A stretch of 64,000 nt of DNA from the NCBI RefSeq assembly GCF_053078305.1, contig NZ_CP166879.1; one strand, 5' to 3'. The translations under genes were made by a program, and so were the position numbers. This document shows, in pieces, positions 9,936-35,558 of the stretch. The notes under the pieces were generated by a model, which worked only from the letters and a program-made list of their open reading frames with translations, was not told the origin of the DNA and made no database searches. The first letter of the stretch is position 1; every line of letters starts with the position of its first letter.

Positions 9936-9937
9936 GT

Positions 9938-17130: not shown

Positions 17131-18017
17131 TGTATTTTGTCGACAACAATTCAGGTGTGACCGATATGCCACCACTGGCCCCCTCTCAGGGTACGCAGGT
17201 TAAATGGTTTACTGAAGGTGACGGACGCAAAGGGATCAGCCATATCGGTCAGGACTGGCTGAACATCGTGCAGGCAGAGCTGCTTGCCATTCTGACAGAA
17301 GGAAAGGTTCAGCCGGATAAGGCAAAACTGAACCAGCTGGTGACAGCCATTAAGGCAATCATTGCAGCAAACGCATACAGCCGGAAAAACAACCTTAAGG
17401 AGATTGCGGATGCAGGTGCAGAAGCACAGGCTGCTGCCCGCCGTCATCTGGGGCTGGGAGGATTATCAGGAAAAGACAGTCTGGCTGCTGCTGATGTGGG
17501 AGCACTGGAGAAATCCCGGAATTTTGACGATGTACCGGATAAACCGACGGCCCGCCTGAATCTTGATGTTTACAGTAAGGGAGAAGGCGATGAGCGTTAT
17601 CTGCGCAGGGACCAGAATGGCGCGGATATCCCGGACAAAGGAACCTTTATCGATAACCTCGGTTTACGGGAAACGGTAAATAAGGCTGCTGATGCCCTGC
17701 CATCGGGTGGAACCGCCGTGGCAGCGAATAAACTCGCCACCCCAGTAAATATTAATGGCGTTCCTTTCGACGGAACGCAGGATATCAATATTACATCGGG
17801 GATGACGCAGTCTGTGGCTGACTCACGTTATGTTCAAAGCATTCGAAGAGGTTCAAGGTCAACGATTGGAATGCAATATAATATTTTTGAAGTTCCTGAC
17901 GGATGCGTACTTACAGGGCTTGATGTCGCTGGTGATGGTAATGCAACGGTAACCGCATATTATCGCCCTGTTCAGTTTCTGATAAATGGTTCGTGGAAAA
18001 CAGCTTCCAGCGCATAA
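17130..18017 (+). CDS. S: tail fibre protein S (constant part plus currently expressed variable tip Sv)
   Basis: 295 aa. The frame crosses the left gix site at 17647-17672. The C-terminal tip is homologous to the silent cassette and to the lambdoid Stf tip (YYRPVQ...W[KR]T). Confidence 0.8.
   Translation: MYFVDNNSGVTDMPPLAPSQGTQVKWFTEGDGRKGISHIGQDWLNIVQAELLAILTEGKVQPDKAKLNQLVTAIKAIIAANAYSRKNNLKEIADAGAEAQAAARRHLGLGGLSGKDSLAAADVGALEKSRNFDDVPDKPTARLNLDVYSKGEGDERYLRRDQNGADIPDKGTFIDNLGLRETVNKAADALPSGGTAVAANKLATPVNINGVPFDGTQDINITSGMTQSVADSRYVQSIRRGSRSTIGMQYNIFEVPDGCVLTGLDVAGDGNATVTAYYRPVQFLINGSWKTASSA
17655..17788 (+). repeat. left arm of perfect 134-bp inverted repeat of the invertible segment
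   Basis: Exact reverse complement of 18906-19039, compared by eye base by base. Imperfect homology continues to about 17813. Confidence 0.9.
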
Positions 18018-19034
18018 AAGTGCAGTAGTTCAAAAAACAGATTATCTGAATAAATATATGATGATTTTGTCTTTTCAACAAAAACAAGGTGAAATAATGG
18101 AGCTTATTAACGTAAAACGATATTACCCGGAACACAAACCCTATGGTGAGGATGTTCAGTATTTCCAGAGTGAGGACGGAAGGGATTTTTATGAATCTCT
18201 CCCGCTTTTCACAAAGAAATACAAACTCTGTATTTCGCCTGTAACGGGTATTATCTGCTCTGTTGCTGAAGATGTCTCTGCTTTATATCCGGCAGGTTTT
18301 ACTGTTGTTGAAGTGGACGAACTGCCGGAAGGTGTGGATATTGACGGTAACTGGCAGTTTTCTGATGGCCTGATATCAAAGGTGCCGGTAAACTGGAAGA
18401 CGGTTGCTGAAAAGCGCCGCTCATCGCTGCTCCAGGAAGCCAACGAAACTGTGGATGACTGGAAAACGGAATTAAAACTGGACATGATTAGCGATGAAAA
18501 TAAATTACAGCTGACGCGCTGGATGGCGTATATCCGACAGCTTAAAGAAATGCACTTTAATGATATTGCCAGTGAGGGGCATTACCAGGCGATTCCCTGG
18601 CCGGAAAAACCGGAATAATTCAGAGGGTGCATTCAGCACCCTTTTCTGTGGTTTACACTGAACTTACCGTTCTCCAGGCATTATTAATATAAATCTGAAC
18701 CGGGCGATAATAGACCCCACCGATATTGTCCGCAGACCGGGAGCCGGTTTCCTGCACGTTAATACCGGAAAGCATACAACCGGAAGGTGCGCTGTAATTC
18801 CATGACATTTCATTGCCTCCGGGTGAATGATAGCTCTGTGCTCCAAGCTGAACATTCTGTACATACCGGCCATCTGCGGTTGACTGCGTCATTCCTGACG
18901 TGATGTTGATATCCTGCGTTCCGTCGAAAGGAACGCCATTAATATTTACTGGGGTGGCGAGTTTATTCGCTGCCACGGCGGTTCCACCCGATGGCAGGGC
19001 ATCAGCAGCCTTATTTACCGTTTCCCGTAAACCG
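17660..19034. mobile_element. Gin-invertible (G-segment-like) DNA segment, ~1.37 kb
   Basis: Bounded by inverted 26-bp gix-like sites: 17647-17672 TTATCGATAACCTCGGTTTACGGGAA and 19022-19047 TTCCCGTAAACCGAGGTTTCAGGGAT. A serine invertase gene lies adjacent. Confidence 0.8.
18097..18618 (+). CDS. U: tail fibre assembly chaperone (Mu U / lambda Tfa family)
   Basis: ATG at 18097 after AAGGTGA. 173 aa (Mu U is ~175 aa). The N-terminal motif SEDGRDFYESLPLF parallels SEDGQDWYECQSLF of the lambdoid Tfa at 37334. Confidence 0.75.
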   Translation: MELINVKRYYPEHKPYGEDVQYFQSEDGRDFYESLPLFTKKYKLCISPVTGIICSVAEDVSALYPAGFTVVEVDELPEGVDIDGNWQFSDGLISKVPVNWKTVAEKRRSSLLQEANETVDDWKTELKLDMISDENKLQLTRWMAYIRQLKEMHFNDIASEGHYQAIPWPEKPE

Positions 19035-19039
19035 AGGTT
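18653..19039 (-). CDS. silent alternative tail-fibre C-terminal cassette (Sv'), promoterless, expressed only after inversion
   Basis: Minus-strand frame is open from just inside gixR (TGA at 19042-19040 closes it outside) to the stop at 18653. Its first ~45 codons are identical to S residues encoded at 17655-17788. Confidence 0.75.
   Translation of the reverse strand, partial: NLGLRETVNKAADALPSGGTAVAANKLATPVNINGVPFDGTQDINITSGMTQSTADGRYVQNVQLGAQSYHSPGGNEMSWNYSAPSGCMLSGINVQETGSRSADNIGGVYYRPVQIYINNAWRTVSSV
18906..19039 (-). repeat. right arm of perfect 134-bp inverted repeat of the invertible segment
   Basis: Exact reverse complement of 17655-17788. Confidence 0.9.
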
Positions 19040-19101
19040 TCAGGGATGTCGTATATCTGCTTTAAAAGGCATTTTCACCTCTTTTTAAGGAAGGTAAATA
19101 C

Positions 19102-19662
19102 ATGCTGATTGGCTATATACGCGTATCAACAAATGACCAGAACACAGGTTTACAAAGAAATGCGCTGGAATGTGCAGGATGTAAGCTGATTTTTGAAGAT
19201 AAAATGAGCGGAAAAACAACGCAGCGGCCGGGACTGAAGCGGGCACTGAAGAAACTAAAACCCGGTGACACGCTGATGGTCTGGAAACTGGACAGGCTGG
19301 GGCGCAGTATGCGCCACCTTGTTGCGCTGACAGATGAATTACAGCAACAGGGGATAAATTTTCGTAGTCTTACTGACAACATTGATACGTCAACCCCCAT
19401 GGGGCGCTTCTTTTTTCACATAATGGGTGCGCTGGCAGAAATGGAGCGTGAATTGATTGTCGAACGGACACGGGCTGGTCTTGCAGCTGCCCGTGAAAGG
19501 GGACGAACCGGTGGCAGACCCCGTCGTCTCACGCAGGAACAATACGAGCAGGTCGGGCGTTTACTGGCCGGGGGTGTCAGCCGAAGACAGGTGGCACTTA
19601 TTTTTGATATCGGCCTTTCAACCCTTTATCGTTATTATCCTGCAAGCATTTCGGAAAAATAA
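19102..19662 (+). CDS. gin: serine DNA invertase (Gin/Hin/Pin/Cin family)
   Basis: 186 aa. MLIGYIRVSTNDQNT...VWKLDRLGRS...GINFRSLTD...MGRFFFH is near-collinear with Mu Gin as recalled. Sits beside gix sites. Confidence 0.92.
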   Translation: MLIGYIRVSTNDQNTGLQRNALECAGCKLIFEDKMSGKTTQRPGLKRALKKLKPGDTLMVWKLDRLGRSMRHLVALTDELQQQGINFRSLTDNIDTSTPMGRFFFHIMGALAEMERELIVERTRAGLAAARERGRTGGRPRRLTQEQYEQVGRLLAGGVSRRQVALIFDIGLSTLYRYYPASISEK

Positions 19663-19752
19663 GACGCTCCCTTTGTTGGGCCTTTACTGAATTAACGCAA
19701 AATGGCGTTTATCGGTCTGTGGATATGATAATTCTGTTTATTCAGGAACAGG

Positions 19753-21810
19753 ATGAATATTATGACGTCCAAATGGGTTCAACTATCATCAATGCCCGGA
19801 AACTTTACCGTTAAAGTTTCCGGTGGTACAGCGGCATTTCTTGAGGCTCCTTTTCCTCCGGCTGAAACGAAAGGAGGAATGACATTTGCTGACTGTCTCA
19901 TCAGTTTTAATACACAGGATTGCCTGTGGGTAAGGCCAGTATCCGGTGATCCGAACGTGGAAATTACCGGAGCGGGTATTGGTGCTGTCATTCCGTTAAG
20001 TGCTGATGTTGCCGGTACTACTGAACCGTCAGACTGGGATAATGCTGAAACACATACCCGTCCGGCAGGAAATGAAACGGCTTCCAGCTCCCCTTCCTGG
20101 TATTACGTGATTGTTATAGCCGGTCAGTCCAATGCTTCATCTTATGGTGAAGGGTTGCCCCTGCCGGATTCTTATGATCGTCCTGATCCACGTATTATGC
20201 AGCTGGCACGCAGGAATACACAAACCCCCGGAGGTATTCCCTGCAAATACAATGAAATCATTCCAGCAGATCACTGCCTTCATGATGTTCAGAATATGAG
20301 TCTGCTGAACCATCCAAAAGCAGACCTGAAAAAAGGGCAGTATGGTTGTGTGGGTCAGGGACTTCATATTGCGAAAAAAGTATTACCGGTGATTCCTGCT
20401 GATGCCGGGATTTTACTGGTTCCCTGTGCCCGTGGCGGCTCTGCTTTTACAACCGGCGCAGTTGGCTCATTCGATCCGGCAAGTGGTGCAGCCGAGGCGT
20501 CACTACGCTGGGGAGTGGATACCCCACTGTATCAGGATCTTGTCAGTCGAACGAAAGCGGCACTTGAGGCGAATCCAAAGAATGTGCTGTTATCTGTCGT
20601 ATGGATTCAGGGGGAAGGAGACCTTAAAGCGACCCCGGCCCAGCATGGTGCCCAGTTTACTGCGATGGTGAAAAAATTCCGTGCGGATCTTGGTGCTTTC
20701 TCCGGTCAGTGTATTGGTGGTTCATCAGACAGTGTGCCGTGGTTATGTGGTGACACAACCTATGACTGGAAAGAGAAGAACCCGGCGGCATATGAAACCA
20801 TTTATAGCGGATATAAAAACCGGGCTTCCGAGAACATTCACTTTGTTCCACTGATGCACGATGAGTTCGGTAATAAAACCGCGACCAACCTGCCGGAGCA
20901 CGACCCGGATATCGCTTCTGCCGGGTATTATGGTGCGGAATCACGGGGAGATGGCAACTGGACAACAGCATCCAGGGCAACCCATTTTAGCTCCTGGGCG
21001 CGCCGTTTTCTGGTCTCAGATCGTTTTGCATCAGCAATTCTTAAATATGCAGGTCTGACCTCTGCATTTATTGCCGGTGTGGCCCCTGATGGTGAAGCCC
21101 TGCCTCAGCCCGCGCCGGGTGGAAAACCGGAAGCTCCGACAGGTAGTCAGCCAGGAAGCAGTGAGTCCCCCCAGCCGACATCCCCGTCACTCCGTACGCT
21201 GCTTTCACTTAAAGCATCAGCAGGGGAAGCCCCGGCTCAGGGATGGAAAATTACAGATGGTACAATCCAGCTGACGGACGAAGGTAAAGCGCTGACCGTA
21301 TCCAAACAAAGCGGAAAAACCTGGTCACTTACCCATGCGACCAGTGCTGCCGGAGAGCTGTTGCAGCATGGTGGTCAGTTGACCTGTAAATTCCGTCTGT
21401 CAGGTGAAGTAAAAGAAGGCCAGTTTGCTCTGGGTATTTACCTCCACACCGATACGGTCCCGGAAGGTGTAACCATGAGTGGTACAGGCACACCGTTCCT
21501 GATGGCGTATTATCTCCAGACAACAGGCGGCCAGTTAAATCTGATGCACCATAAAACAGGGGGGAATACGAAACTGGGATCATTTGGAGCCTACAATAAC
21601 CAGTGGCATACACTTGTCCTGAAGTTTACGGCGGGAAGTGCCCAGGTAACGCCTGTGCTGGATGGCACTCCGGGCCAGGCATTCCAGATGGTGAAAGATG
21701 CACTTTCCCCTGCCAAAGATACGCTGACACTGACAGATGTCACCAAAGGGGCAACTTATGGCGTGTCTTTTGAGAGCGTTGTCCTTGAGGTTAATACCCC
21801 TGCGGCATAA
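19753..21810 (+). CDS. SGNH/SASA-type (sialate O-acetylesterase-like) carbohydrate esterase fused to a LamG/ConA-like C-terminal domain
   Basis: 685 aa. GQSN block at aa 124-127 (nt 20122-20133) and VWIQGEGD block are typical of the DUF303/SASA esterase family (NanS-like). Pro/Ser-rich linker. The ~190-aa beta-rich C-terminus has a lectin-like pattern. Confidence 0.5.
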   Translation: MNIMTSKWVQLSSMPGNFTVKVSGGTAAFLEAPFPPAETKGGMTFADCLISFNTQDCLWVRPVSGDPNVEITGAGIGAVIPLSADVAGTTEPSDWDNAETHTRPAGNETASSSPSWYYVIVIAGQSNASSYGEGLPLPDSYDRPDPRIMQLARRNTQTPGGIPCKYNEIIPADHCLHDVQNMSLLNHPKADLKKGQYGCVGQGLHIAKKVLPVIPADAGILLVPCARGGSAFTTGAVGSFDPASGAAEASLRWGVDTPLYQDLVSRTKAALEANPKNVLLSVVWIQGEGDLKATPAQHGAQFTAMVKKFRADLGAFSGQCIGGSSDSVPWLCGDTTYDWKEKNPAAYETIYSGYKNRASENIHFVPLMHDEFGNKTATNLPEHDPDIASAGYYGAESRGDGNWTTASRATHFSSWARRFLVSDRFASAILKYAGLTSAFIAGVAPDGEALPQPAPGGKPEAPTGSQPGSSESPQPTSPSLRTLLSLKASAGEAPAQGWKITDGTIQLTDEGKALTVSKQSGKTWSLTHATSAAGELLQHGGQLTCKFRLSGEVKEGQFALGIYLHTDTVPEGVTMSGTGTPFLMAYYLQTTGGQLNLMHHKTGGNTKLGSFGAYNNQWHTLVLKFTAGSAQVTPVLDGTPGQAFQMVKDALSPAKDTLTLTDVTKGATYGVSFESVVLEVNTPAA

Positions 21811-21867
21811 TCGTGACGGCCGGGAATTTATCCGGCTGTAACATCAGTTAATAAGAGTGAGGCTTAT

Positions 21868-22047
21868 ATGACATATATAAACGTCTGCCTGCTGTATTTC
21901 TGCACGGTGGTTTGTTGTCTGTTGCTTGTCAGCGGTGGTTATAAAATTATTCGCAATTATTTTCGAAATAAAATTGATGCAGCTGCCGAGGAAAAGATAA
22001 AAAGCGGTGCTGTAATGCCGCAGCCGAAAGACTCCGGTCAGATTTAA
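21868..22047 (+). CDS. 59-aa single-pass membrane peptide (below ORF-track cutoff)
   Basis: ATG at 21868 with SD AGTGAGG. MTYINVCLLYFCTVVCCLLLVSGGYKIIRNYFRNK... has a hydrophobic N-terminus followed by a basic/charged tail. Confidence 0.5.
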   Translation: MTYINVCLLYFCTVVCCLLLVSGGYKIIRNYFRNKIDAAAEEKIKSGAVMPQPKDSGQI

Positions 22048-22082
22048 TTTTTTGTGAACCAGAAAAGGAAAGGAGAATATTC

Positions 22083-22328
22083 ATGCCAGAGATTAAAGGC
22101 ACGGTTACTGAAGAGCTTGTCAAACAGGCACTTTATTCTGAAGAAGTGAACCGCGTGCTGAAGGCGCAGGTTCGCAAGGATTTTGAGGCACAAATCGACG
22201 CATATGTTGATGAAGTGCTGGCCCGAATGGTTGGCCATTCTCCGGCTGAAAACAGCACGGAGAATGAGCCTCAGCCCGTAGAGCAACCAGAGCCGGTTCA
22301 GCCCGGAACTGACAGTGCCATGATGTAA
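22083..22328 (+). CDS. hypothetical 81-aa protein (helical N-terminus, acidic Pro/Glu-rich C-terminus)
   Basis: ATG with strong SD (AAAGGAGAA). Followed directly by a strong terminator. Confidence 0.5.
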   Translation: MPEIKGTVTEELVKQALYSEEVNRVLKAQVRKDFEAQIDAYVDEVLARMVGHSPAENSTENEPQPVEQPEPVQPGTDSAMM

Positions 22329-22333
22329 CAATA

Positions 22334-22367
22334 CAAACCGACAGCTTCTCCTGTCGGTTTGATTTTC
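22334..22367 (+). terminator. rho-independent terminator of the esterase operon
   Basis: 11-bp stem CAAACCGACAG / CTGTCGGTTTG, 6-nt loop, then ATTTTC. Confidence 0.65.
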
Positions 22368-22402
22368 ATGGGCGATGTATATACCAGTCAGAGGAAATAA
22401 TC

Positions 22403-22603
22403 ATGGACAAGAACAAAAAGCAGCCCGATACCAAAGGTCTGGAAATATTAAGCGCAGAAATTATCAATGCGCTACGTTCAGGACTTGATGAAAATACATT
22501 ACAGGATCGAAACTTCACCACTGCAATGTGGATAGCGATGCAGATCCTGTGTACCCCAAGATGCGCTATTTTTGCGGTTCGTGAGGGTCAGTTGACTCGC
22601 TGA
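22403..22603 (+). CDS. hypothetical 66-aa protein
   Basis: ATG preceded by GAGGAA. No recognisable family. Its 3' end overlaps a convergent ORF by 38 nt. Confidence 0.4.
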   Translation: MDKNKKQPDTKGLEILSAEIINALRSGLDENTLQDRNFTTAMWIAMQILCTPRCAIFAVREGQLTR

Positions 22604-22772
22604 TTGCCCGAATTACATCAGAAAAGCACGCGTTCCATAATTGCATAGCTGATGAATCACCAGCTGTATGAAAAGAGGTAAAGACACAACTGGTGGATGT
22701 CATTGCTGCAATTGTGATATCAGCTGCAATTCGCGCAGCCTGTAACTTTTGGTCGGTGGTCAGTTTATCCAT
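22566..22772 (-). CDS. hypothetical 68-aa protein
   Basis: ATG at 22772 preceded by AGGAGA (the track ORF starts 24 nt further upstream). No recognisable family. Confidence 0.4.
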   Translation of the reverse strand: MDKLTTDQKLQAARIAADITIAAMTSTSCVFTSFHTAGDSSAMQLWNACFSDVIRAISESTDPHEPQK

Positions 22773-22823
22773 TTTCTCCTGCCTGAACAGATGCATCTCT
22801 GCTTTACAGGAGGCCGGGGAATA

Positions 22824-23144
22824 TCATAGGATACACCACGAGCTCAGAGTGAAGCATTGATGCAGTTTTTTACAGATTGACCCAGAATAGTTCGCGCTAT
22901 CTGAGTCGCCATTTATGTAGTCCCGAAGTAAAGCATTGATGCAAACTTGTCTAAATCGGCCCAGCATAGTTCCAGCTATGCTGGGTTTCCCTTTTATGTA
23001 GTATCCTGTTGATTTGAAACATACTACATATACGCGCGATCCTACCTTCACTGGATAAAAAGTCAATAAAATGATCATTTTATGATCGTTTTCACCACCT
23101 AACTCTTCGTTTTCTTTAAGTAAATAATCACCGCCCTGAATCAT
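22824..23144 (-). CDS. doubtful 106-aa ORF spanning the tandem hairpin repeats
   Basis: No SD. The C-terminal half is encoded by the two ~80-bp repeat units and overlaps the putative mom regulatory region. May be non-coding. Confidence 0.2.
   Translation of the reverse strand: MIQGGDYLLKENEELGGENDHKMIILLTFYPVKVGSRVYVVCFKSTGYYIKGKPSIAGTMLGRFRQVCINALLRDYINGDSDSANYSGSICKKLHQCFTLSSWCIL
22850..23006 (+). repeat. two tandem, diverged ~79-81-bp repeat units, each with a hairpin
   Basis: AAGCATTGATGCA recurs at 22852 and 22931. CCCAG(A/C)ATAGTTC recurs, and TATGTAG recurs at 22914 and 22995. Unit 2 has a perfect 10-bp stem (22960-22969/22976-22985) plus a U-rich tail. Confidence 0.7.
23066..23087. 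promoter_or_regulatory. 18-bp perfect palindrome centred on GATC, plus an adjacent second GATC (candidate Dam-sensitive operator of the com-mom region)
   Basis: ATAAAATGATCATTTTAT (23066-23083) is self-complementary, with GATC at 23073. A second GATC is at 23084. Confidence 0.4.
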
Positions 23145-23190
23145 TGTTGATGACTTTTCAATCTATTTGTTGTATCAATTAAACAAATCG

Positions 23191-23215
23191 AATCGATCGT
23201 TTTTGTCGATCGATT
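23191..23215. promoter_or_regulatory. 9-bp inverted repeat AATCGATCG-N7-CGATCGATT, each arm carrying a GATC, just upstream of com
   Basis: Arms at 23191-23199 and 23207-23215; GATC at 23195 and 23208. In Mu, mom transcription is Dam/OxyR- and C-controlled. Confidence 0.4.
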
Positions 23216-23258
23216 GCATGAGAAAGGCATCAACAACAAAGCAGGAGGTTATGCGGCC

Positions 23259-23459
23259 ATGTATCGAAACATACGGTGCCGACACTGCAATAAGCTACTG
23301 GCACGGGCCAGTTTCAGTTATCTGGAAGTAAAATGTCCGCGCTGTAAAACCCTCAATCAAATCACATCTCCGAGCGCCACAGAGCACCCCACATACACAA
23401 GGAAATCCTGTCGTGGGGAACAGAAAGCAAGTCACATCCCGTATCATCAGCACGCCTGA
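23259..23459 (+). CDS. com: Com-like zinc-finger translational activator of mom
   Basis: 66 aa from the ATG after [14 protein letters not shown]...X17...CPRCKTLN parallels Mu Com CKNCNKLL...CPRCKRHI. Its 3' end overlaps the mom start, as in Mu. Confidence 0.8.
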
Positions 23460-24150
23460 ACTTATTCGCTATAACGACAATATCGTTGGTTATGGTTCCC
23501 GTGAGTTGCGGGTTGAGACAATAAGTTGCTGGCTGGCCAGACTGGTTATCGTCAATAAACATTACAGCCACCGTTTCGTAAATAACTCCTACCTTCATCT
23601 GGGCATATTTTCAGAACGGGAACTTGTTGGCGTAATGCAATGGGGTTACGCCCTTAACCCAAACAGTGGTGCACGCGTCGTAACGGGTACGCAGAACCGA
23701 GAATATATGGAGCTGAACCGGCTATGGATGCATGACTGTATGCCGAGAAACTCCGAATCAAGGGCAATCAGTTACGCGCTCAAGCTAATCAGGCAGCTTT
23801 ATCCGCAGGTACAGTGGGTTCAGTCGTTTGCAGATGAGCGTTGTGGCTGTCTTGGTGTCGTGTATCAGGCAAGCAATTTTGATTATGTAGGCAGCCATGA
23901 AACAATATTCTATGAACTTGATGGCGAGTGGTATCACGAGATTTGCAGGAATGCCATTAAACGAGGCGGACAACGAGGTGAACATCTGAGGGCTAATATC
24001 GACAGAGCCAGTGTGCATAAGTTCCGACAGTTTCGTTACATCCGGTTTCTGAACAAGAGGGCCAGAAAACGCCTCAACACAAAGCTATTCAAAGTCCAGC
24101 CTTACCCAAAACCACAAACAGTTAAAACTGGTTTGAAAGAGAGTGAATGA
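23413..24150 (+). CDS. mom: Mom-like DNA (adenine) modification protein
   Basis: 245 aa overlapping com. GNAT-like Mom-family pattern (KHYSHR...LGIF...LVGVMQWG...ELNRLW...[10 protein letters not shown]...SFADE...GVVYQASNF). Last gene before the phage end, as in Mu. Confidence 0.7.
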
Positions 24151-24189
24151 GCGCTTAAAAACTCATTCTAAAACTCAAAAGAAAAGCGC

Positions 24190-24259
24190 CGATTTAGTAT
24201 CAAATAAGTTGCGTATCGGCGTTTTTCAGCGGTATCAAATGAAATGCAAATCGGTATCA
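24190..24259 (+). mobile_element. Mu-like right end (attR) with three putative transposase-binding repeats and terminal CA
   Basis: GTATCA at 24197, 24232 and 24254; the last two are 22 bp apart. The element ends ...CGGTATCA at 24259. Read inward it begins TGATACCG. Confidence 0.6.
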
Positions 24260-24391
24260 AAAAAATCGCCGCGCTATATGCCGCTGACCACAGCATTTAA
24301 ACAGAATATTGAACGTATCCGGCGTGAACGCCTGCCAGAAGAACTGGCATATGCGCTGAAACAACAACTGAGGATTGCGATAAAACGATGA
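24260..24391 (+). pseudogene. Z: 3' fragment (last ~43 codons) of minor tail gene Z, truncated by the Mu-like insertion
   Basis: Translation [43 protein letters not shown], versus the recalled lambda gpZ C-terminus ...VKIPMAVPLTTAFKQNIERIRRERLPKELGYALQHQLRMVIKR. ATGA overlap with U. Confidence 0.75.
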
Positions 24392-24783
24392 AACATACTG
24401 ATATCCGTGCAGCCGTACTGGATGCACTGGAGAAGCATGACACCGGGGCGACGCTGTTTGATGGTCGCCCCGCTGTTTTTGAGGAGGCGGATTTTCCGGC
24501 GGTCGCGGTTTATCTGACGGATGCAGAGTATACCGGTGAAGAGCTGGATGCTGATACCTGGCGGGCCACACTGCATATTGAGGTGTTTTTACCGGCACAG
24601 GTACCGGATTCAGAGCTTGATCAGTGGATGGAAAGCCGGATTTACCCGGCGATGGCGGCGATCCCTGCACTGGCAGGCATGATTACCACGATGGTTACGC
24701 AGGGCTATGAGTATCGTCGTGATGACGATATGGCATTGTGGAGCTCTGCAGATCTGACTTATTCCATTACATACGAGATGTGA
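24388..24783 (+). CDS. U: tail terminator protein U
   Basis: 131 aa, lambda gpU-like, in the correct position. Confidence 0.9.
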
Positions 24784-24790: not shown

Positions 24791-25540
24791 ATGGCAACAC
24801 CAAATCCCCTGGCGCCGGTAAAAGGTTCCGGCACCACGCTCTGGGTTTACACCGGTAAGGGCGATGCTTATGCAAACCCGCTGTCAGATGATGAGTGGAC
24901 GCGTCTGGCAAAAATAAAGGATCTGACCCCCGGCGAGATGACGGCGGAATCCTACGACGATAACTATCTGGATGATGAGGATGCTGACTGGGTATCCACC
25001 GGGCAGGGGCAGAAATCTGCCGGTGACACCAGTTTTACGCTGGCCTGGAAGCCCGGCGAGAAAGGGCAGCGTGATTTGATTGCCTGGTTTGACAGCAGTG
25101 AGACCCGGGCCTACAAAATCCGCTTCCCGAACGGTACGGTGGATGTGTTCCGTGGCTGGGTGAGCGCCATTGGTAAAGCGGTGACTGCCAAAGAAGTGAT
25201 TACCCGTACGGTAAAAATCACCAATATTGGTCGTCCGTCGCTGGCGGAGGATCGGGGAGAAATCACACCGGTCACCGGTATTACCGTGACGCCACTAACG
25301 GGGAATGTGGCAAAAGGTCAGAGCACCACCCTGACTGTGGCCGTTCAGCCGGAAGGCGCAACGGATAAAACATTCCGCGCAACGTCGGCAAATCAGAATT
25401 TCGCCACCATTACCGTGAAAGGGAACACGATCACCGTGAAAGGTGTTGCGGCAGGTAAAGCGCAGATCCCTGTTGTCACCGGCAACGGTGAGTTTGCGGC
25501 GGTGGCGGAGATCACCGTTACGGATGGCGCTGCGGGCTGA
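24791..25540 (+). CDS. V: major tail protein V (with C-terminal Ig-like domain)
   Basis: 249 aa. ...[12 protein letters not shown]...[18 protein letters not shown]...[14 protein letters not shown] is near-identical in pattern to lambda gpV. Confidence 0.92.
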
Positions 25541-25556
25541 GGGGAGGAGATCAAGC

Positions 25557-25979
25557 ATGTTCCTGAAAACAGAACAATTTGAATATAACGGTGTGTCCGT
25601 CACGCTGTCGGAACTGTCCGCGCTGCAGCGGTTTGATTATATAAAGTTTGTTTCAGACGCAGCACAACAGGAGACAACGGAGCATGATGCCGTGCACATT
25701 AACCAGCGATATCTGGAAACGGCATCCCTGCTTGTGGCGATGTCGCTATGGCATTCCCATTCCCTCAAAGGCACTCTGGCCTCTCCGGAGACAGAGATGC
25801 AGCAGATCCGCCGTGAAGTGATGCTGGGATGGCCTGCTGATGCACTGAATCAGGCAACGAACCGGGTGCTTTATCTTTCAGGTATGCTGGATAACCGGCA
25901 CGATGCCGATCCTGAACAAACCGGGAAAGCAGAAGCGACTGAGCCGGTAACATCAAAAAAGCATTCGAAGGCGAGCTGA
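25557..25979 (+). CDS. G: tail assembly chaperone G
   Basis: MFLKTEQFEYNGVSVTLSELSALQR... matches lambda gpG MFLKTESFEHNGVTVTLSELSALQR. The track ORF has a spurious 38-codon upstream extension. Confidence 0.9.
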   Translation: MFLKTEQFEYNGVSVTLSELSALQRFDYIKFVSDAAQQETTEHDAVHINQRYLETASLLVAMSLWHSHSLKGTLASPETEMQQIRREVMLGWPADALNQATNRVLYLSGMLDNRHDADPEQTGKAEATEPVTSKKHSKAS

Positions 25980-26419
25980 ACTTTGTCCTGAAACTGGCGC
26001 GTGAGATGGGGAGAGCCGACTGGCGCGCCATGCTTGCCGGGATGACATCCACCGAATATGCCGACTGGCGACGTTTTTACTGCACGCATTATTTTCAGGA
26101 TACCCAACTGGACGCTCATTTTTCCGGGCTGATGTACGCCGTACTCAGCCTGTTTTTTGGCGATCCGGATATGCATCCGGCGGATTTCAGTCTGCTTGCT
26201 CCAGCGTGTGAGGAAGAGCAGACGGAGATGCCGGACGAGGAAGAAATGCTGATGCAGAAAGCGACAGGAGTTGCCGGAGGCGTCCGGTTCGGAGGGGACG
26301 GGGGACGCGATATTTCACCTTCTGCGGATGTGGTGGATGTCAGCGAGGATGATGTTGCATTAATGATGGCTTCAGCGGGGATTTCCGGAGGTGTGAGATA
26401 TGTCCCAGCCAGCGGGTGA
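25557..26419 (+). CDS. T: tail assembly chaperone G-T fusion made by -1 programmed frameshift
   Basis: The T frame (26006..26419 in the track) is -1 relative to G and open back past the slip site. Same arrangement as lambda G/GT. Confidence 0.8.
25923..25929 (+). promoter_or_regulatory. G GGA AAG slippery heptamer for the G/G-T -1 frameshift
   Basis: GGGAAAG lies near the 3' end of G, identical to the lambda slip sequence. Confidence 0.8.
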
Positions 26420-29012
26420 TCTGGTTATTGATTTGAGTCTGGATGCGGCCCGGTTTGATGAACAGATGGCCCGGGTACGCCGTCATTTTTCCAGTCTGGA
26501 GGCGGATGCCAGAAAAACCGCCAGTACTGTTGAACAGGGGCTGAGCCGACAGGCGCTGGCTGCACAAAAAGCCGGGATATCAGTCGGACAGTATAAGGCT
26601 GCCATGCGCACACTGCCCGCACAGTTCACGGATATTGTCACTCAGCTTGCCGGTGGTCAGAATCCCTTCCTTATCATGCTGCAGCAGGGGGGGCAGATCA
26701 GCGATTCATTCGGTGGACCGCTCAGCCTGCTTACCCTGCTGAAGGAGGAACTTCTCGGGATCAGGGATGCCTCTGAATCATCAGAGGATTCGCTGTCAGA
26801 TACGGCAAATGCTCTGGCTGAAAATGCCCGGAATGCCGGTGAACTGGGACGATTTATGTCGGTGGCCCGTGTGGCGGCAGGTGGCGGGGTTGCCGTACTG
26901 GCCGCGCTTGCTGCTGCCGCCTGGCAGGCAGAGCAGGCTGACCGGGCCTTATTGCGTTCACTGACCCTGACCGGAGGGGCGGCTGCCACCACAACGGCCG
27001 AATTGTGGAAAATGGCCGGGGTGATCAGCGATGAAGCCGGTGGTGGTATCAGACAGGCGGCAGAAAATCTGGCCCGTCTGGCAGAAAGCGGGAAATATAC
27101 CGCCGGGCAGCTACGGATCATGGGGGAAACCTCTCAGAGATGGCTGCAGACGGTGGGGGACGATGCCGGGAAGGTGGAAAAAGCCTTTGAAGGGATTGCA
27201 GCAGATCCGGTGAAGGCGCTGGCCTCCCTGAATCAGCAGTATAACTTCCTGAGCGTTTCCCAGTTACGCCATATTGATGAGCTTGAGCGCACGAAAGGTA
27301 AACAGGCTGCGGTGACGGAGGCGATGTCCCTGTTTGCGGATGTTATGAATGCACGTCTGGAGCAACTTGATAAAGCGGCCACGCCGGTGGAAAAAATCTG
27401 GGACGATGTTAAAACCTGGACTTCTGACGCATGGGCATGGATAGGTGATCATACACTGGGGGCACTCAGTCTGATCACTGACGTGGTGGCAGGAACCGTT
27501 GAACAGGTGAAGCTGCTGCTTGTGCAGGGGGATCTGGCGCTGGCTGAATTTATTCAGTCAGCCTGGGAAACGACAAAGAATGTGCCCGGCGTTGGTGCGT
27601 TGTTTGGTGAACTGGCAGAAGAGAACCGCGTATTTATTGAGAAAACAAAACGCGATGAACTGGCGCTGAGAAAATCCATTGCGGAACGGGATGCGCGTAT
27701 ACGCCAGGGGGAAATGGGGTACATCAACCGTTCGCGTGCAACAGGCGTCAGCAAAGGTCCGGGGCAGCAGGAAGCCGTCAGCCGTCTGGCTGAAGAGCTG
27801 ACAGGTAAAAAGCATACATCACCGAAAACGCGCTCTGCCGGGGAGAGGGAAGAGGAGCAGGCAAGAGAGGCTCTGCTTGCCCTTGAAGCTGAACTCAGGA
27901 CGCTGGAAAAACACAGCGGTGCGAATGAGAAAATCAGCCGGCAACGCCGTGATTTATGGAAGGCGGAAAGTCAGTATGCGGTCCTGAAAGAGGCTGCCAC
28001 GAAACGACAGTTATCCGGGCAGGAAAAATCCCTGCTGGCCCATGAGAAAGAGACGCTGGAGTACAAACGCCAGCTGGCTGAGCTGGGCGACAAGGTTGAA
28101 TACCAGAAACGCCTGAATGAGCTGGCACAGCAGGCGGCACGGTTTGAAGAGCAGCAGAGCGCGAAGCAGGCCGCCATCAGCGCAAAAGCCCGTGGTCTCA
28201 CTGACCGTCAGGCGCAGCGGGAGTCTGAAGCGCAGCGTCTTCGTGACGTGTATGGCGATAATCCGCAGGCGCTGGCACAGGTCACCGGGGCACTGAAACA
28301 GACATGGGCGGATGAAGACATGCTGCGCGGTGACTGGCTGGCCGGGCTGAAGTCCGGCTGGGGCGAGTGGGCAGAAAGTGCGACGGACAGTTTTTCGCAG
28401 GTTAAAAGTGCTGCCACGCAGACCTTTGACGGTATTGCGCAGAATATGGCGGCGATGCTGACCGGTGCAGAGGCAGACTGGCGGGGATTCACCCGTTCGG
28501 TGCTGTCCATGATGACAGAAATCCTGCTTAAACAGGCCATGGTGGGAATTGTCGGGCGTATCGGCAGTGCCATTGGTGGTGCTTTCGGTGGTGGTGCATC
28601 TGCTTCCTCGGGGACGGCCATTGAGGCTGCGGCGGCGAACTTCCATTTCGCGACCGGAGGATTTACGGGGACGGGCGGCAAATATGAGCCTGCGGGGATA
28701 GTTCACCGCGGGGAGTTTGTTTTCACGAAAGAGGCAACCAGCCGGATAGGTGTGGGGAATCTTTACCGTCTGATGCGCGGGTATGCGGAAGGTGGTTATG
28801 TGGGTGCTGCCGGAAGTCCGGCGCAGATGCGGCGGGCGGAAGGTATTAATTTTAATCAGAACAATCACGTGGTGATTCAGAACGACGGTATCAACGGACA
28901 GGCGGGGCCGCAGCTGATGAAGGCGGTGTATGACATGGCCCGTAAGGGGGCGCAGGATGAACTCCGGCTGCAGTTACGTGATGGCGGTATGTTATCAGGG
29001 AGCGGGCGATGA
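26400..29012 (+). CDS. H: tail tape measure protein H
   Basis: 870 aa. N-terminus (GDLVIDLSLDAARFDEQMARVRRHFS) and C-terminus (KYEPAGIVHRGEFVFTKEATSRIGVGNLYRLMRGYA) match lambda gpH. Confidence 0.92.
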   Translation: MSQPAGDLVIDLSLDAARFDEQMARVRRHFSSLEADARKTASTVEQGLSRQALAAQKAGISVGQYKAAMRTLPAQFTDIVTQLAGGQNPFLIMLQQGGQISDSFGGPLSLLTLLKEELLGIRDASESSEDSLSDTANALAENARNAGELGRFMSVARVAAGGGVAVLAALAAAAWQAEQADRALLRSLTLTGGAAATTTAELWKMAGVISDEAGGGIRQAAENLARLAESGKYTAGQLRIMGETSQRWLQTVGDDAGKVEKAFEGIAADPVKALASLNQQYNFLSVSQLRHIDELERTKGKQAAVTEAMSLFADVMNARLEQLDKAATPVEKIWDDVKTWTSDAWAWIGDHTLGALSLITDVVAGTVEQVKLLLVQGDLALAEFIQSAWETTKNVPGVGALFGELAEENRVFIEKTKRDELALRKSIAERDARIRQGEMGYINRSRATGVSKGPGQQEAVSRLAEELTGKKHTSPKTRSAGEREEEQAREALLALEAELRTLEKHSGANEKISRQRRDLWKAESQYAVLKEAATKRQLSGQEKSLLAHEKETLEYKRQLAELGDKVEYQKRLNELAQQAARFEEQQSAKQAAISAKARGLTDRQAQRESEAQRLRDVYGDNPQALAQVTGALKQTWADEDMLRGDWLAGLKSGWGEWAESATDSFSQVKSAATQTFDGIAQNMAAMLTGAEADWRGFTRSVLSMMTEILLKQAMVGIVGRIGSAIGGAFGGGASASSGTAIEAAAANFHFATGGFTGTGGKYEPAGIVHRGEFVFTKEATSRIGVGNLYRLMRGYAEGGYVGAAGSPAQMRRAEGINFNQNNHVVIQNDGINGQAGPQLMKAVYDMARKGAQDELRLQLRDGGMLSGSGR

Positions 29013-29338
29013 AAACCTTTCGCTGGAAAGTGAAGCCGGATATGGAGGTGAACTCGCAGCCGTCGGTGCGTGAAGTGCGTTTTGGTGACGGGTACTCACA
29101 GCGTATGGCGGCAGGGCTGAATGCTGACCTGAAAACATACCGGGTGATGCTTTCCGTGACCCGGGAGGAGGCCCGGCATCTGGAAGCGTTCCTGGCAGAG
29201 CACGGGGGCTGGAAGGCATTTTTGTGGAAGCCACCCTATGCATACCGGCAGATAAAGGTGACCTGTGCCGGGTGGTCTGCGCGGGTCGGGATGCTGCGCG
29301 TTGAGTTCAGCGCGGAGTTTAAGCAGGTGGTGAACTGA
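29009..29338 (+). CDS. M: minor tail protein M
   Basis: 109 aa in the lambda gpM position, ATGA-coupled. Confidence 0.9.
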   Translation: MKTFRWKVKPDMEVNSQPSVREVRFGDGYSQRMAAGLNADLKTYRVMLSVTREEARHLEAFLAEHGGWKAFLWKPPYAYRQIKVTCAGWSARVGMLRVEFSAEFKQVVN

Positions 29339-30036
29339 TGCAGGATATTCACGAAGAAACTCTTAACGAGTCGGTTAAGTCAGAGCAGTCACCGCGGGTG
29401 GTGCTCTGGGAAATCGACCTGACGGCGCAGGGCGGTGAGCGGTATTTTTTCTGCAATGAGCTGAATGAAAAAGGGGAGCCGGTGACCTGGCAGGGGCGTG
29501 AATATCAGGCGTACCCGATTGAGGGCAGCGGCTTTGAGATGAACGGAAAGGGCAGCAGTGCCCGCCCGTCGCTGACAGTGTCCAATCTTTTTGGGCTGGT
29601 CACCGGGATGGCGGAGGATTTGCAGAGCCTGGTGGGTGCCACGGTGGTCCGCCGCCGGGTGTATGCGCGTTTTCTGGATGCGGTGAATTTTGTGGCAGGC
29701 AATCCGGAGGCAGACCCTGAGCAGGAGCTGATGGACCGGTGGGTGGTGGAGCAGATGTCAGCGCTGACGGCCATGACGGCCTCGTTTGTGCTGGCGACAC
29801 CGACGGAGACGGACGGTGCGCTGTTTCCCGGTCGCATCATGCTGGCGAACACCTGTATGTGGGATTACCGGGGCGATGAATGCGGGTATAACGGTCCGGC
29901 AGTGGCGGATGAGTTCGACAACCCCACCACGGATATCCGGAAGGACAGATGCAGTAAATGCATGCGCGGGTGTGAGATGCGCGGCATGGTGGCTAATTTC
30001 GGCGGTTTCCTTTCCATTAATAAACTTTCGCAGTAA
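29338..30036 (+). CDS. L: minor tail protein L
   Basis: 232 aa, lambda gpL-like, including the C-terminal Cys cluster. Confidence 0.9.
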   Translation: MQDIHEETLNESVKSEQSPRVVLWEIDLTAQGGERYFFCNELNEKGEPVTWQGREYQAYPIEGSGFEMNGKGSSARPSLTVSNLFGLVTGMAEDLQSLVGATVVRRRVYARFLDAVNFVAGNPEADPEQELMDRWVVEQMSALTAMTASFVLATPTETDGALFPGRIMLANTCMWDYRGDECGYNGPAVADEFDNPTTDIRKDRCSKCMRGCEMRGMVANFGGFLSINKLSQ

Positions 30037-30046
30037 ATCCCGTTTT

Positions 30047-30790
30047 ATGACACAGACTGAATCAGCGATTCTGGCGCATGCCCGGCGGTGTGCGCCAGCG
30101 GAGTCGTGCGGCTTCGTGATAAGCACCCCGGAGGGCGAACGGTACCAGCCCTGCGTGAATATCTCCGCAGAGCCGGAGGCGTATTTTCGTATTGCACCGG
30201 AAGACTGGCTGCGGGCAGATATGCAGGGGGAGATTGTGGCGCTGGTCCACAGTCATCCCGGTGGTCTGCCCTGGCTGAGCGAGGCGGACCGGCGGCTGCA
30301 GATAAAGAGTGCCCTGCCCTGGTGGCTGGTCTGCCGGGGCGACATTCACCGGTTCCGCTGTGTGCCGCACCTGACCGGACGGCGCTTTGAACACGGTGTG
30401 ACGGACTGTTACAGCCTGTTCCGGGATGCATACCATCTGGCGGGGATAACGCTGCCGGATTTTGTGCGTGAGGATGACTGGTGGCGCAACGGCCAGAACC
30501 TGTACCTGGACAACCTGGCGGACAACGGCTTTTACCGGGTGTCTCCGTCCTGTGCACAGGCGGGCGATATCCTGCTGTGCTGCTTTGGTTCATCGGTGCC
30601 GAATCATGCCGCCATTTACTGTGGCAACGGTGAACTGCTTCACCATATACCTGAACAACTGAGTAAACGGGAGAGGTATTCTGAAAAATGGCAACGACGA
30701 ACGCATTCTGTCTGGCGTCACCGCCACTGGTCCGTATCTGCCTTCACGGGGATTTACAACGATTTGGTCGCCGCATCAGCCTGTATGTGA
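30047..30790 (+). CDS. K: tail tip assembly protein K (NlpC/P60 + JAB-like)
   Basis: MTQTESAILAHARRCAPAESCGFV... is identical in pattern to lambda gpK. The track ORF start at 29786 is an upstream artefact overlapping L. Confidence 0.9.
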   Translation: MTQTESAILAHARRCAPAESCGFVISTPEGERYQPCVNISAEPEAYFRIAPEDWLRADMQGEIVALVHSHPGGLPWLSEADRRLQIKSALPWWLVCRGDIHRFRCVPHLTGRRFEHGVTDCYSLFRDAYHLAGITLPDFVREDDWWRNGQNLYLDNLADNGFYRVSPSCAQAGDILLCCFGSSVPNHAAIYCGNGELLHHIPEQLSKRERYSEKWQRRTHSVWRHRHWSVSAFTGIYNDLVAASACM

Positions 30791-31368
30791 ACACGGCAGC
30801 GGAGGCCATACGTGCCCTGTCACTGCAGGTGCCGGGATTCCGCGGTCAGATGAACGAAGGCTGGTACCGGATACGTATTGCCGGTGAGGATACCGCGCCG
30901 GAGGCGGTGTATGCCCGTCTTCACGAACAACTGGGTGAGGGAGCGGTCATCCACATTGTACCGCGACTGGCCGGAGCCGGGGGAAATGGTGTTTTTCAGG
31001 TGGTGCTGGGGGCAGCAGCCATCGTGGGCTCTTTCTTCACAGCCGGTGCAACGATGGCGTTGTGGGGCGCAGCCCTGAGTGCCGGAGGGCTGACTGCCAC
31101 CACGATGCTGTTCTCACTGGGTGCCAGCATGATACTGGGTGGTGTGGCTCAGATGCTGGCCCCGAAGGCAAAGACGCCGGAGTACAAAAGTACGGATAAC
31201 GGTAAACAGAACACGTATTTTTCGTCACTGGACAACATGATTGCCCAGGGTAACCCGATGCCGGTACCTTACGGTGAAATGCTGGTTGGTTCACGACGGA
31301 TATCCCAGGACATTAGCACCCGTGATGAGGGCGGAGACGGGAAAGTGGTGGTTATCGGACGGGGATAA
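30688..31368 (+). CDS. I: tail tip assembly protein I
   Basis: 226 aa. ...ICLHGDLQRFGRRISL...DNGKQNTYFSSLDNM... matches lambda gpI. Overlaps the K 3' end as in lambda. Confidence 0.9.
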   Translation: MATTNAFCLASPPLVRICLHGDLQRFGRRISLYVNTAAEAIRALSLQVPGFRGQMNEGWYRIRIAGEDTAPEAVYARLHEQLGEGAVIHIVPRLAGAGGNGVFQVVLGAAAIVGSFFTAGATMALWGAALSAGGLTATTMLFSLGASMILGGVAQMLAPKAKTPEYKSTDNGKQNTYFSSLDNMIAQGNPMPVPYGEMLVGSRRISQDISTRDEGGDGKVVVIGRG

Positions 31369-31370
31369 AA

Positions 31371-31406
31371 ATAAAAAAATCCCGCAGAGTTAGTGGAGCT
31401 GCGGGA
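31371..31406 (-). terminator. minus-strand rho-independent terminator in the I-J spacer
   Basis: Minus strand reads UCCCGCAG-11 nt loop-CUGCGGGA, followed by UUUUUUUAUUUUU. Confidence 0.65.
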
Positions 31407-31535
31407 AATAACGATGAAGATTAATGTTATGGAGTTATTTTTTTGGGCAGAAAAACAGTAACGCAGCGTCATTATAGCGGCTACAGGCAATTGCCGGAAA
31501 TGTGAAGAATTTCAGAAATTTTATTCCGTCATGAC

Positions 31536-31566
31536 ACAGGCACCCTCCGGGGTGCCTGTTGTTTTT
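31536..31566 (+). terminator. plus-strand rho-independent terminator immediately upstream of J
   Basis: 10-bp stem ACAGGCACCC/GGGTGCCTGT, loop TCCG, then TGTTTTT. Confidence 0.7.
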
Positions 31567-31609
31567 GGGCATAAACAGATTCAGACATCAGACAGGAGAG
31601 GGGGACAGA

Positions 31610-35077: not shown

Positions 35078-35275
35078 ACATCGCGCCCCGGGATTGCCGG
35101 AAGGAGACAAAAACCGTACAGTATGCGCGGGTGCCTTTGGCTGATGGCCGGAGGGAACACCTGAAGGCCGGAAAGACGAAGGCCCCGGACAAACATTCAT
35201 GTTTAACCCGAGGCCTGACTTTCGATCTTCAGCAAATTGAAGGTTAGCGCCTCTCCGTAAAAGGAGCAAGCGTTT

Positions 35276-35545: not shown

Positions 35546-35558
35546 ATGGGGGAAATCC

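What the first reader, a model, noticed from the sequence alone, without database searches (positions are those of the whole stretch)
24190..24391. Prophage-in-prophage junction: Mu-like right end lies inside tail gene Z of a lambdoid prophage
After mom there are three GTATCA repeats (24197, 24232, 24254). The last two are 22 bp apart, which is the spacing of adjacent MuA-type end sites in Mu. The last copy ends in the CA dinucleotide expected of a Mu-family terminus. Read inward, the end is TGATACCGATTTGCATTTCATTTGATACCG.

From 24260 the frame that runs into the U start (ATGA at 24388-24391) encodes [43 protein letters not shown]. This matches my recollection of the lambda gpZ C-terminus (...VKIPMAVPLTTAFKQNIERIRRERLPKELGYALQHQLRMVIKR).

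Only about 43 codons of Z remain, and everything 5' of them is Mu-like DNA. A transposable phage has therefore inserted into, and inactivated, the tail module of a resident lambdoid prophage that itself sits in ydfJ.
Basis: partly seen in the sequence, partly recalled or inferred. Interest (0 to 1): 0.6.

Follow-up and report, generated by a model that had tools for sequence, protein, structure and literature searches.

The report
Mu-like prophage inserted in lambdoid gene Z

Summary
The core claim holds, but the details are wrong. Window 1-24278 is the right 24.3 kb of an Sp18-type Mu-like prophage.

**Where the prophage ends.** Thirteen independent insertions all end in ...ATCGCCGCGCTATA and then diverge. 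The right terminus is therefore 24278, not 24259, and it ends in TA, not CA.

**The Z remnant.** Lambdoid Z homology starts exactly at 24279. It comprises 2 nt, 36 codons and the stop codon, and that stop overlaps the U start at 24388-24391.

**The GTATCA repeats.** All three are real. They are the inner parts of the transposase end sites. The same TTTGATACC motif lies at the same distance from the left terminus in Sp18.

**The left junction.** It lies outside the window. I found it in a draft assembly of the same strain (0 substitutions over 18.2 kb of overlap). It reads FII, then the Z 5' part, then ...GGCGGTGCC|TGTAACCAGG (Mu left end).

**Simple insertion.** The flanking duplication is TGCC (4 bp), not AAAAA. 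Removing the prophage and one TGCC copy restores a 192-codon Z that is 90% identical to lambda-type Z.

**Context.** The lambdoid prophage abuts a truncated ydfJ. It also lacks the terminase and the 5' part of the portal gene. Other E. coli genomes carry this phage inside portal and terminase genes of other prophages. The finding is ordinary.

**Side note.** This phage group shows 4-bp duplications in 7 of 7 insertions.

The parts
1..24278 (+). Right 24.3 kb of an Sp18-type Mu-like prophage, from the portal gene to the right terminus. The left ~14.8 kb lies upstream of the window.
   Evidence: Collinear with Sakai Sp18 at 96-98% nt identity, except for the inverted G segment and a divergent stretch at about 20.5-22.9 kb. 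Pfam Portal_Mu hit at 15-1604.
17655..19039 (.). Invertible G-type tail-fibre segment, bounded by 158-bp inverted repeats (17655-17812 and 18882-19039).
   Evidence: Inverted relative to Sakai Sp18 and relative to the second copy in the same strain.
19102..19662 (+). gin-like serine DNA invertase.
   Evidence: Pfam Resolvase (E 5e-51) plus HTH_7.
23214..23459 (+). com ORF. The probable start is near 23259, by comparison with the 66-aa RefSeq homologues.
   Evidence: Pfam Zn_ribbon_Com, E 3e-12. Com is annotated at this position in relatives.
23413..24150 (+). mom, the DNA modification gene and last gene before the right end.
   Evidence: Pfam Mom, E 3e-77. The identical 245-aa protein occurs in 10 other insertions.
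24197..24212 (-). Innermost end-site repeat (R3-like): GTATCAAATAAGTTGC.
   Evidence: Repeat family D1. GATAC at position 78 from the terminus when read inward.
24232..24247 (-). Second end-site repeat (R2-like): GTATCAAATGAAATGC.
   Evidence: GATAC at position 43 from the terminus.
24254..24278 (-). Terminal end site (R1-like) through the right terminus. Read inward: TATAGCGCGGCGATTTTTTTGATAC.
   Evidence: GATAC lies at position 21 from the terminus at both the right end and the Sp18 left end. The terminus at 24278 is fixed by 13 insertions.
24279..24282 (+). Right copy of the 4-bp target-site duplication, TGCC (Z nt 467-470).
   Evidence: The left junction in the same strain reads ...GGCGGTGCC|TGTAACC. 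Intact Z reads GCGGTGCCGCTGACC.
24279..24391 (+). 3' remnant of lambdoid tail gene Z: 2 nt of codon 156, codons 157-192 and the stop.
   Evidence: 100% nt identity to the intact prophage in strain Z1323MEC0001, starting exactly at 24279. Pfam Minor_tail_Z profile positions 155-190 of 190, 34.5 bits.
24388..24783 (+). Lambdoid tail terminator gene U, intact.
   Evidence: Pfam Phage_tail_U, E 1e-61. The identical protein sits next to an intact Z in 10 other prophages.
24791..38005 (+). Rest of the lambdoid tail module (V, G, T, H, M, L, K, I, J, tail fibre, tail-fibre assembly).
   Evidence: ORF list. Gene order and Pfam families match those in L026 and L005-L014.
38318..39601 (+). 3' part of ydfJ, at the host side of the lambdoid attachment site, followed by ydfI, rspR, ydfG and dcp.
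   Evidence: 98.6% identical region in strain FHI_NMBU_10 is annotated 'ydfJ, incomplete, missing N-terminus'.

Best explanation
A Mu-like transposable phage of the Sp18 group integrated by transposition into codons 156-157 of tail gene Z of a lambdoid prophage already resident at ydfJ.

**How it works**
- The phage's MuA-family transposase binds repeated sites at both ends. At the right end the TTTGATAC(C) motifs lie 21, 43 and 78 nt in from the terminus.
- It joins the two termini (5'-TGTAACC... and ...GCGCTATA-3') to target positions staggered by 4 bp.
- Repair of the gaps duplicated TGCC.

**Result**
- Z is split into a 5' ORF (157 Z residues plus VTR and a stop, outside the window) and an orphan 36-codon 3' piece at 24279-24391.
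- A prophage of roughly 39 kb (the size of relatives) now separates the lambdoid head genes from U-J.

**Shown**
- Both junctions, the exact termini, the 4-bp duplication and restoration of the Z reading frame.

**Inferred**
- The chemistry, by analogy with phage Mu.
- Loss of gpZ function and a polar block on U-J expression.
- That the Mu-like phage was active in this lineage, suggested by a second 99.9%-identical copy elsewhere in the same strain.
For: **Right terminus.** The window and 12 other insertions next to unrelated genes (frvX, appC, gyrA region, yciO/trp, T6SS, flg and others) share ...ATCGCCGCGCTATA and then diverge.

**Start of Z homology.** It begins exactly at 24279, with 100% identity to an intact lambdoid prophage.

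**Same strain.**
- The tape-measure protein of the window occurs in only one contig of the protein collection, JPQG01000014.1.
- That contig matches window 16400-34658 with 0 substitutions and 10 single-base gaps.
- The same contig is IMG/VR UViG_2617271340_000003.

**Left junction.** The predicted sequence GATGGCGGTGCC|TGTAACC is found once in IMG/VR, in UViG_2617271340_000001 of the same genome. It reads FII, Z 5' part, TGCC, Mu-like left end. The Z' ORF matches Pfam Minor_tail_Z positions 1-157.

**Frame restoration.** Joining the Z 5' part to window 24283-24391 gives a 579-nt open frame. It differs by 2 residues from a neighbouring intact Z and is 90% identical over its full length to Z of lambda-derived phages.

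**Family duplication length.** The 4-bp duplication matches the family: 6 of 6 complete-genome insertions have 4-bp duplications.

**End sites.** The motif is at position 21 at both ends, with 22-bp spacing between R1 and R2.

**Transposition genes.**
- The left-end type seen in L033 leads into A and B transposition genes in a related contig.
- Sp18 A and B carry the Pfam Mu-transpos_C, HTH_Tnp_Mu_1 and Phage-MuB_C domains.
Against: - The left junction is not in the window or in the same assembly. It comes from a short-read draft of what is, by sequence, the same strain.
- That draft contig stops 472 bp into the Mu-like left end. Physical continuity of left end, 39 kb of prophage and right end is therefore inferred, not read.
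- The strain holds at least two near-identical copies of the phage. A later exchange between copies cannot be strictly excluded.
- The transposase genes of this particular copy were not seen.
Confidence: 0.93

Rival explanations
1. The junction is not a simple insertion. It results from a Mu-mediated rearrangement (adjacent deletion or inversion), or from homologous recombination between the two Mu-like copies in the strain. In that case the right end next to Z 3' and the left end next to Z 5' would belong to different original insertions.
For: The strain carries a second copy, 99.9% identical, whose right end lies next to yciO/trp. Continuity through the prophage was not read in one contig.
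Against: The two flanks overlap by exactly 4 nt of Z (TGCC), the duplication length seen in all six other insertions of this family. They restore Z without loss or gain of a base. Both flanks have the same orientation relative to the phage. An exchange between copies would leave mismatched flanks at each copy.
Confidence: 0.03
2. This is a mosaic hybrid phage. Illegitimate or homologous recombination fused a Mu-like late region to a lambdoid tail module, with no transposition event.
For: Lambdoid prophages are highly mosaic. The ORF 24143-24391 runs in frame from the end of mom into Z.
Against: The break lies exactly at the transposon terminus shared by 13 insertions. There is no shared homology across the junction. 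A reciprocal left junction with a target duplication exists.
Confidence: 0.02
3. This is an assembly artefact: a chimeric join of a Mu-like contig to a lambdoid contig.
For: Repeated prophage DNA is a common cause of misassembly. No complete RefSeq E. coli genome holds the junction.
Against: Two independent assemblies share the junction base for base: the 64-kb window and the draft JPQG01000014.1 / IMG/VR contig. The complementary left junction is in a separate contig.
Confidence: 0.02

Closest known systems
Prophage Sp18 of E. coli O157:H7 Sakai (Mu-like; described as apparently intact and packaged, PMC2669165)
   Same: Collinear at 96-98% nt identity over the 24.3 kb in the window. It has the same right terminus, the same first 88 nt of the left end and the same end-site motif. 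It has the same gene set, including gin, the SASA/DUF6645 gene, com and mom.
   Different: Sp18 is inserted in sorM, not in gene Z. The G segment is in the opposite orientation. The stretch at about 20.5-22.9 kb is divergent. The left-end immunity region of the copy in this strain is of another type beyond nt 88.
Bacteriophage Mu
   Same: - Overall layout: portal through tail genes, invertible tail-fibre segment, gin, com, mom, right end.
- Several transposase sites at each end, with two adjacent right-end sites 22 bp apart. This comes from my knowledge of Mu attR, not from a test here.
- Insertion at many unrelated sites with a short duplication.
- A and B proteins with Mu-type Pfam domains.
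   Different: The end sequences are unrelated in detail. The right terminus is TA, not CA. The duplication is 4 bp, not 5 bp. The transposase is too divergent for phmmer to hit MuA chains in the PDB and gives only weak hits to retroviral integrase cores.
Mu-like prophages inside other prophage genes in E. coli strains War and M7638
   Same: The same phage family is inserted in the portal gene (War) or at the terminase small-subunit gene (M7638) of lambdoid-type prophages. These are also prophage-in-prophage cases.
   Different: The target genes are different, and the right-hand junctions there were not examined.
Lambda tail completion protein gpZ (Pfam PF06763)
   Same: The reconstructed gene is 192 codons and 90% identical to Z of lambda-derived phages. 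It has the same Z-U start/stop overlap and the same position between FII and U.
   Different: Here it is split at codons 156-157. Only the last 36 codons are in the window.

Membership tests
Mu-like transposable phage (Sp18 group) | Mu-type morphogenesis and accessory genes in Mu order (Mu portal, invertible segment plus gin, com, mom at the right end) | tested here: met
   Pfam Portal_Mu, Resolvase/HTH_7, Zn_ribbon_Com and Mom. Collinear with Sp18.
Mu-like transposable phage (Sp18 group) | Fixed termini found next to many unrelated host sequences | tested here: met
   13 right ends and 7 left ends have constant termini and variable flanks. There are 278 places in 230 of 5426 complete genomes.
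Mu-like transposable phage (Sp18 group) | Multiple repeated transposase-binding sites at both ends | tested here: met
   TTTGATAC(C) lies at 21, 43 and 78 nt from the right terminus and at 21, 116 and 168 nt from the left terminus, all in the same orientation. Actual binding was not tested.
Mu-like transposable phage (Sp18 group) | MuA- and MuB-type transposition genes near the left end | tested here: inconclusive
   They are outside the window and beyond the end of the draft contig for this copy. They are present in Sp18 and in a contig with the same left-end type.
Phage Mu proper (Mu/D108 type transposition) | 5-bp target-site duplication | tested here: not met
   A 4-bp duplication in 7 of 7 insertions with both flanks known.
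Phage Mu proper (Mu/D108 type transposition) | Termini 5'-TG...CA-3' | tested here: not met
   The left end begins TG. The right end is ...CTATA in all 13 copies.
Lambda gpZ (Pfam Minor_tail_Z, PF06763) | Sequence match above the curated threshold, with a position between FII and U | tested here: met
   The remnant scores 34.5 bits against a cutoff of 23.9, on profile positions 155-190. The 5' part scores 216.9 bits on profile positions 1-157. The full reconstruction is 90% identical to lambda-type Z.
Simple transpositional insertion | Both halves of the target gene flank the element in the same orientation, with a direct duplication, and the target is restored on removal | tested here: met
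   The left half was read in a draft assembly of the same strain, not in the window.

The most novel reading that the evidence does not exclude
The Sp18 group of Mu-like phages transposes with a 4-bp rather than 5-bp target stagger and uses a non-canonical 3'-TA right terminus. Its divergent MuA-family transpososome would then have a different target-capture geometry from Mu. If this has not been described, these widespread E. coli prophages are a natural variant for studying how DDE transpososomes set the length of the duplication.
Probability: 0.4. Interest if true: 0.45.

Novelty: new member of a known kind. Interest (0 to 1): 0.2.

Why it matters
The main value is for correct annotation.
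- The boundary between the two prophages is 24278|24279.
- The small ORF 24143-24391 is a junction artefact.
- The lambdoid element at ydfJ is a multiply damaged remnant.

The finding also shows that a transposable phage has been active in this strain's lineage: there are two copies, one of them inside another prophage. Nested insertions of this phage family recur in E. coli, so the event is not surprising.

The by-product has some wider interest. This family shows a consistent 4-bp duplication and a TA terminus, which bears on transposition mechanics if it is not already on record.

Tried and rejected
1. Looked for the junction in 5426 complete E. coli genomes. None holds it.
2. Exact-protein look-up of the junction ORF 24143-24391 found nothing on record.
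3. Look-ups of U and Mom did not return the source strain among the places shown. They did supply intact-Z neighbours and 10 more right ends.
4. Searched for a truncated Z' protein among Z homologues. No representative ends in the predicted fusion tail.
5. Ten guessed Z'-fusion sequences, in 4-bp and 5-bp versions, were not in the collection. The real N-terminus differs by one residue from my nearest guess.
6. Cluster members of ten short Z clusters were all contig-end fragments or unrelated fusions.
7. A scan of species-representative genomes for the predicted left junction gave no match.
8. A literature search found no statement on the ends or duplication length of Sp18-type phages.
10. Pfam aligns the 82-aa ORF from profile position 135, but this adds only about 3 bits over the 36-aa remnant. 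I treat it as over-extension into phage-end DNA.

Full report
**What is at the coordinates**

- GTATCA occurs at 24197, 24232 and 24254.
- As the longer word TTTGATAC on the minus strand, 3 of the 4 matches in the whole 64-kb window fall within these 65 bases. About 1.8 matches are expected by chance in the whole window.
- The repeat finder extends the unit to 16 nt (GTATCAAA-N5-YGC), with spacings of 35 and 22 bp.
- Upstream lie mom (23413-24150; Pfam Mom, E 3e-77), com, a SASA/DUF6645 gene, a gin-like invertase and an invertible tail-fibre segment.
- Downstream lies an intact lambdoid U (24388-24783; Pfam Phage_tail_U), whose ATG overlaps the TGA of the preceding frame.

**Where the Mu-like DNA really ends**

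A megablast of 23900-24700 against 5426 complete E. coli genomes found no genome with the whole junction. It found many genomes with either half.

I aligned the window with two independent insertions of the same phage and with an intact lambdoid prophage. The two insertions are in O157 FDAARGOS_293 (in frvX) and in strain 07_3636 (in appC).
- The phage sequence common to all three runs to ...AAAAAAATCGCCGCGCTATA, which is window 24278.
- The lambdoid match, at 100% identity, starts at 24279.

An exact-protein look-up of Mom then gave ten more insertions next to unrelated host genes. All end in the same ...CGCCGCGCTATA and differ from the next base on, where A, C, G and T are all seen.

The GTATCA words are the inner parts of the end sites.
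- Read inward, GATAC lies 21, 43, 62 and 78 nt from the right terminus.
- It lies 21, 66, 116 and 168 nt from the Sp18 left terminus.
- ATTTGATACC is at the identical distance at both ends.

This is the layout expected of transposase end-binding sites.

**What the phage is**

- Window 1-24278 is collinear with prophage Sp18 of O157:H7 Sakai at 96-98% identity. The G segment is inverted and one stretch (about 20.5-22.9 kb) is divergent.
- Window position 1 corresponds to a point about 14.8 kb from the Sp18 left end.
- Sp18 is a known Mu-like prophage, described as apparently intact and efficiently packaged (PMC2669165).
- Its A and B proteins carry the Pfam Mu-transpos_C, HTH_Tnp_Mu_1 and Phage-MuB_C domains.
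- The transposase is too divergent for phmmer to reach MuA structures.

**What the lambdoid side is**

- Window 24279-24391 holds the last 2 nt of Z codon 156, codons 157-192 and the stop. It matches Pfam Minor_tail_Z profile positions 155-190 of 190 at 34.5 bits, against a cutoff of 23.9.
- U, V, G, T, H, M, L, K, I, J and the tail-fibre genes follow. After them comes a ydfJ lacking its N-terminus, then ydfI, rspR, ydfG and dcp.
- The lambdoid prophage does sit in ydfJ.

**The left junction**

It lies outside the window, so I looked for the source strain.
- The window's tape-measure protein occurs in a single contig of the protein collection, JPQG01000014.1 of GCA_000736735.1. That contig holds the same mom|U junction.
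- It matches window 16400-34658 with no substitutions and ten single-base gaps. It is the same strain in a different assembly.
- The same contig is in IMG/VR as UViG_2617271340_000003.

To predict the left junction I first measured the flanking duplication of this phage family. In six complete genomes with both ends it is 4 bp every time:

| Genome | Duplication |
|---|---|
| Sakai | TAAA |
| FDAARGOS_293 | ATCA |
| E2865 | GATA |
| PV0838 | AGAA |
| 00_3230 | GGTT |
| 07_3636 | CTAC |

The pattern GATGGCGGTGCC(N0-1)TGTAACC then hit exactly one IMG/VR contig, UViG_2617271340_000001, from the same genome and without the optional base. Its sequence reads FII, then the Z start, then ...AAAATCCCGATGGCGGTGCC|TGTAACCAGGTAAATCATTTGATACC....
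- The Z' ORF has 160 codons and ends MAVPVTR-stop. It matches Minor_tail_Z positions 1-157.
- The 472 bp of phage DNA on that contig are 99.8% identical to another IMG/VR contig, in which A (92%) and B (99%) homologues of the Sp18 transposition genes follow.

The structure is therefore Z5'-TGCC-[prophage]-TGCC-Z3'.
- Joining the two halves with one TGCC gives a 579-nt open frame.
- It is two residues different from the Z of a neighbouring intact prophage.
- It is 90% identical over all 192 residues to Z of lambda-derived phages.

**Mechanism and consequences**

Shown:
- exact termini;
- a 4-bp duplication of target nt 467-470 of Z;
- perfect restoration of the target.

Together these are the signature of a simple transpositional insertion.

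Inferred, by analogy with Mu:
- transposase bound at the end sites cleaves the 3' ends and joins them to staggered target phosphates.

Also inferred:
- gpZ is lost;
- the lambdoid late transcript can no longer reach U-J across about 39 kb of foreign DNA.

Whether this insertion is what killed the lambdoid prophage is doubtful.
- In the draft contig, homology to an intact relative begins only about 813 nt inside the portal gene.
- The terminase large subunit, W and the portal 5' part are missing.
- A different set of genes lies upstream in their place: Nu1-like, D-like, E-like, SSB and AAA_25.

**Rivals**

- A hybrid phage made by recombination is excluded by the terminus-exact break and the reciprocal junction.
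- A rearrangement between the two phage copies in this strain would give mismatched flanks, whereas the flanks here match. The second copy lies next to yciO/trp and is 99.9% identical. This rival keeps a small probability, because continuity through the prophage was not read in one contig.
- An assembly artefact is unlikely because two assemblies agree base for base.

**Comparison with what is known, and novelty**

This is a new insertion site of a known phage type.
- The left end occurs at 278 places in 230 of 5426 complete E. coli genomes.
- In strain War the phage sits in the portal gene of another prophage. In strain M7638 it sits at a terminase small-subunit gene.
- Prophage-in-prophage is therefore recurrent for this family.

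I rate the finding as ordinary (interest 0.2).

The one thing I did not expect is the consistent 4-bp duplication and TA right terminus (7 of 7 and 13 of 13). Phage Mu has 5 bp and CA, from my own knowledge. I found no statement about this in the papers I could search, and I cannot say whether it is on record elsewhere.

Noticed in passing
window 24263-24282; L027, L004, L029, L030, L031, L025/L002, L033: Sp18-type Mu-like prophages end 5'-TGTAACC...GCGCTATA-3', so the right terminus is TA, not CA. They are flanked by 4-bp, not 5-bp, direct duplications in 7 of 7 insertions with both flanks known. Their transposase has Mu-type Pfam domains but is very divergent from MuA.
   Followed up: partly
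L019 (JPQG01000005.1), compared with window 13414-24278: The same strain carries a second copy of the Mu-like prophage. Its right end lies next to yciO/trp. It is 99.9% identical to the window copy (10 mismatches in 9.8 kb) and its G segment is in the opposite orientation. This suggests transposition or repeated lysogeny in this lineage.
   Followed up: partly
L033 (IMGVR_UViG_2617271340_000001), about 5.0-12.8 kb from the Z' end: Upstream of the head genes, the lambdoid prophage loses homology to intact relatives about 813 nt inside the portal gene. The terminase large subunit and W are absent. Instead there are Nu1-like, D-like, E-like, SSB and AAA_25 genes, possibly another phage-like or satellite element.
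   Followed up: partly
L038 (strain War) and L039 (strain M7638): Mu-like prophages of the same family are inserted in the portal gene and at the terminase small-subunit gene of other lambdoid-type prophages.
   Followed up: yes
window 17655-19039: The invertible tail-fibre (G-type) segment has 158-bp inverted repeats next to the gin-like invertase gene (19102-19662). It is in the orientation opposite to Sakai Sp18.
   Followed up: partly
window 19753-21810 and about 20564-22924: A 685-aa protein with a sialate O-acetylesterase-like SASA domain plus DUF6645 lies between gin and com. The region around and after it is the least conserved part relative to Sp18: 89% identity, then no megablast match.
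   Followed up: no
window 24181-24227: A 13-nt inverted repeat (GAAAAGCGCCGAT / ATCGGCGTTTTTC, 92% complementary) brackets the innermost end-site repeat just after mom. It may be a terminator-like hairpin or part of the end architecture.
   Followed up: no
window 16400-34658 compared with L026: The window and the draft contig differ only by ten single-base gaps and no substitutions. In the draft, J is called as fragments, whereas the window has one long J ORF (31559-35077). This looks like homopolymer errors in one of the assemblies.
   Followed up: no
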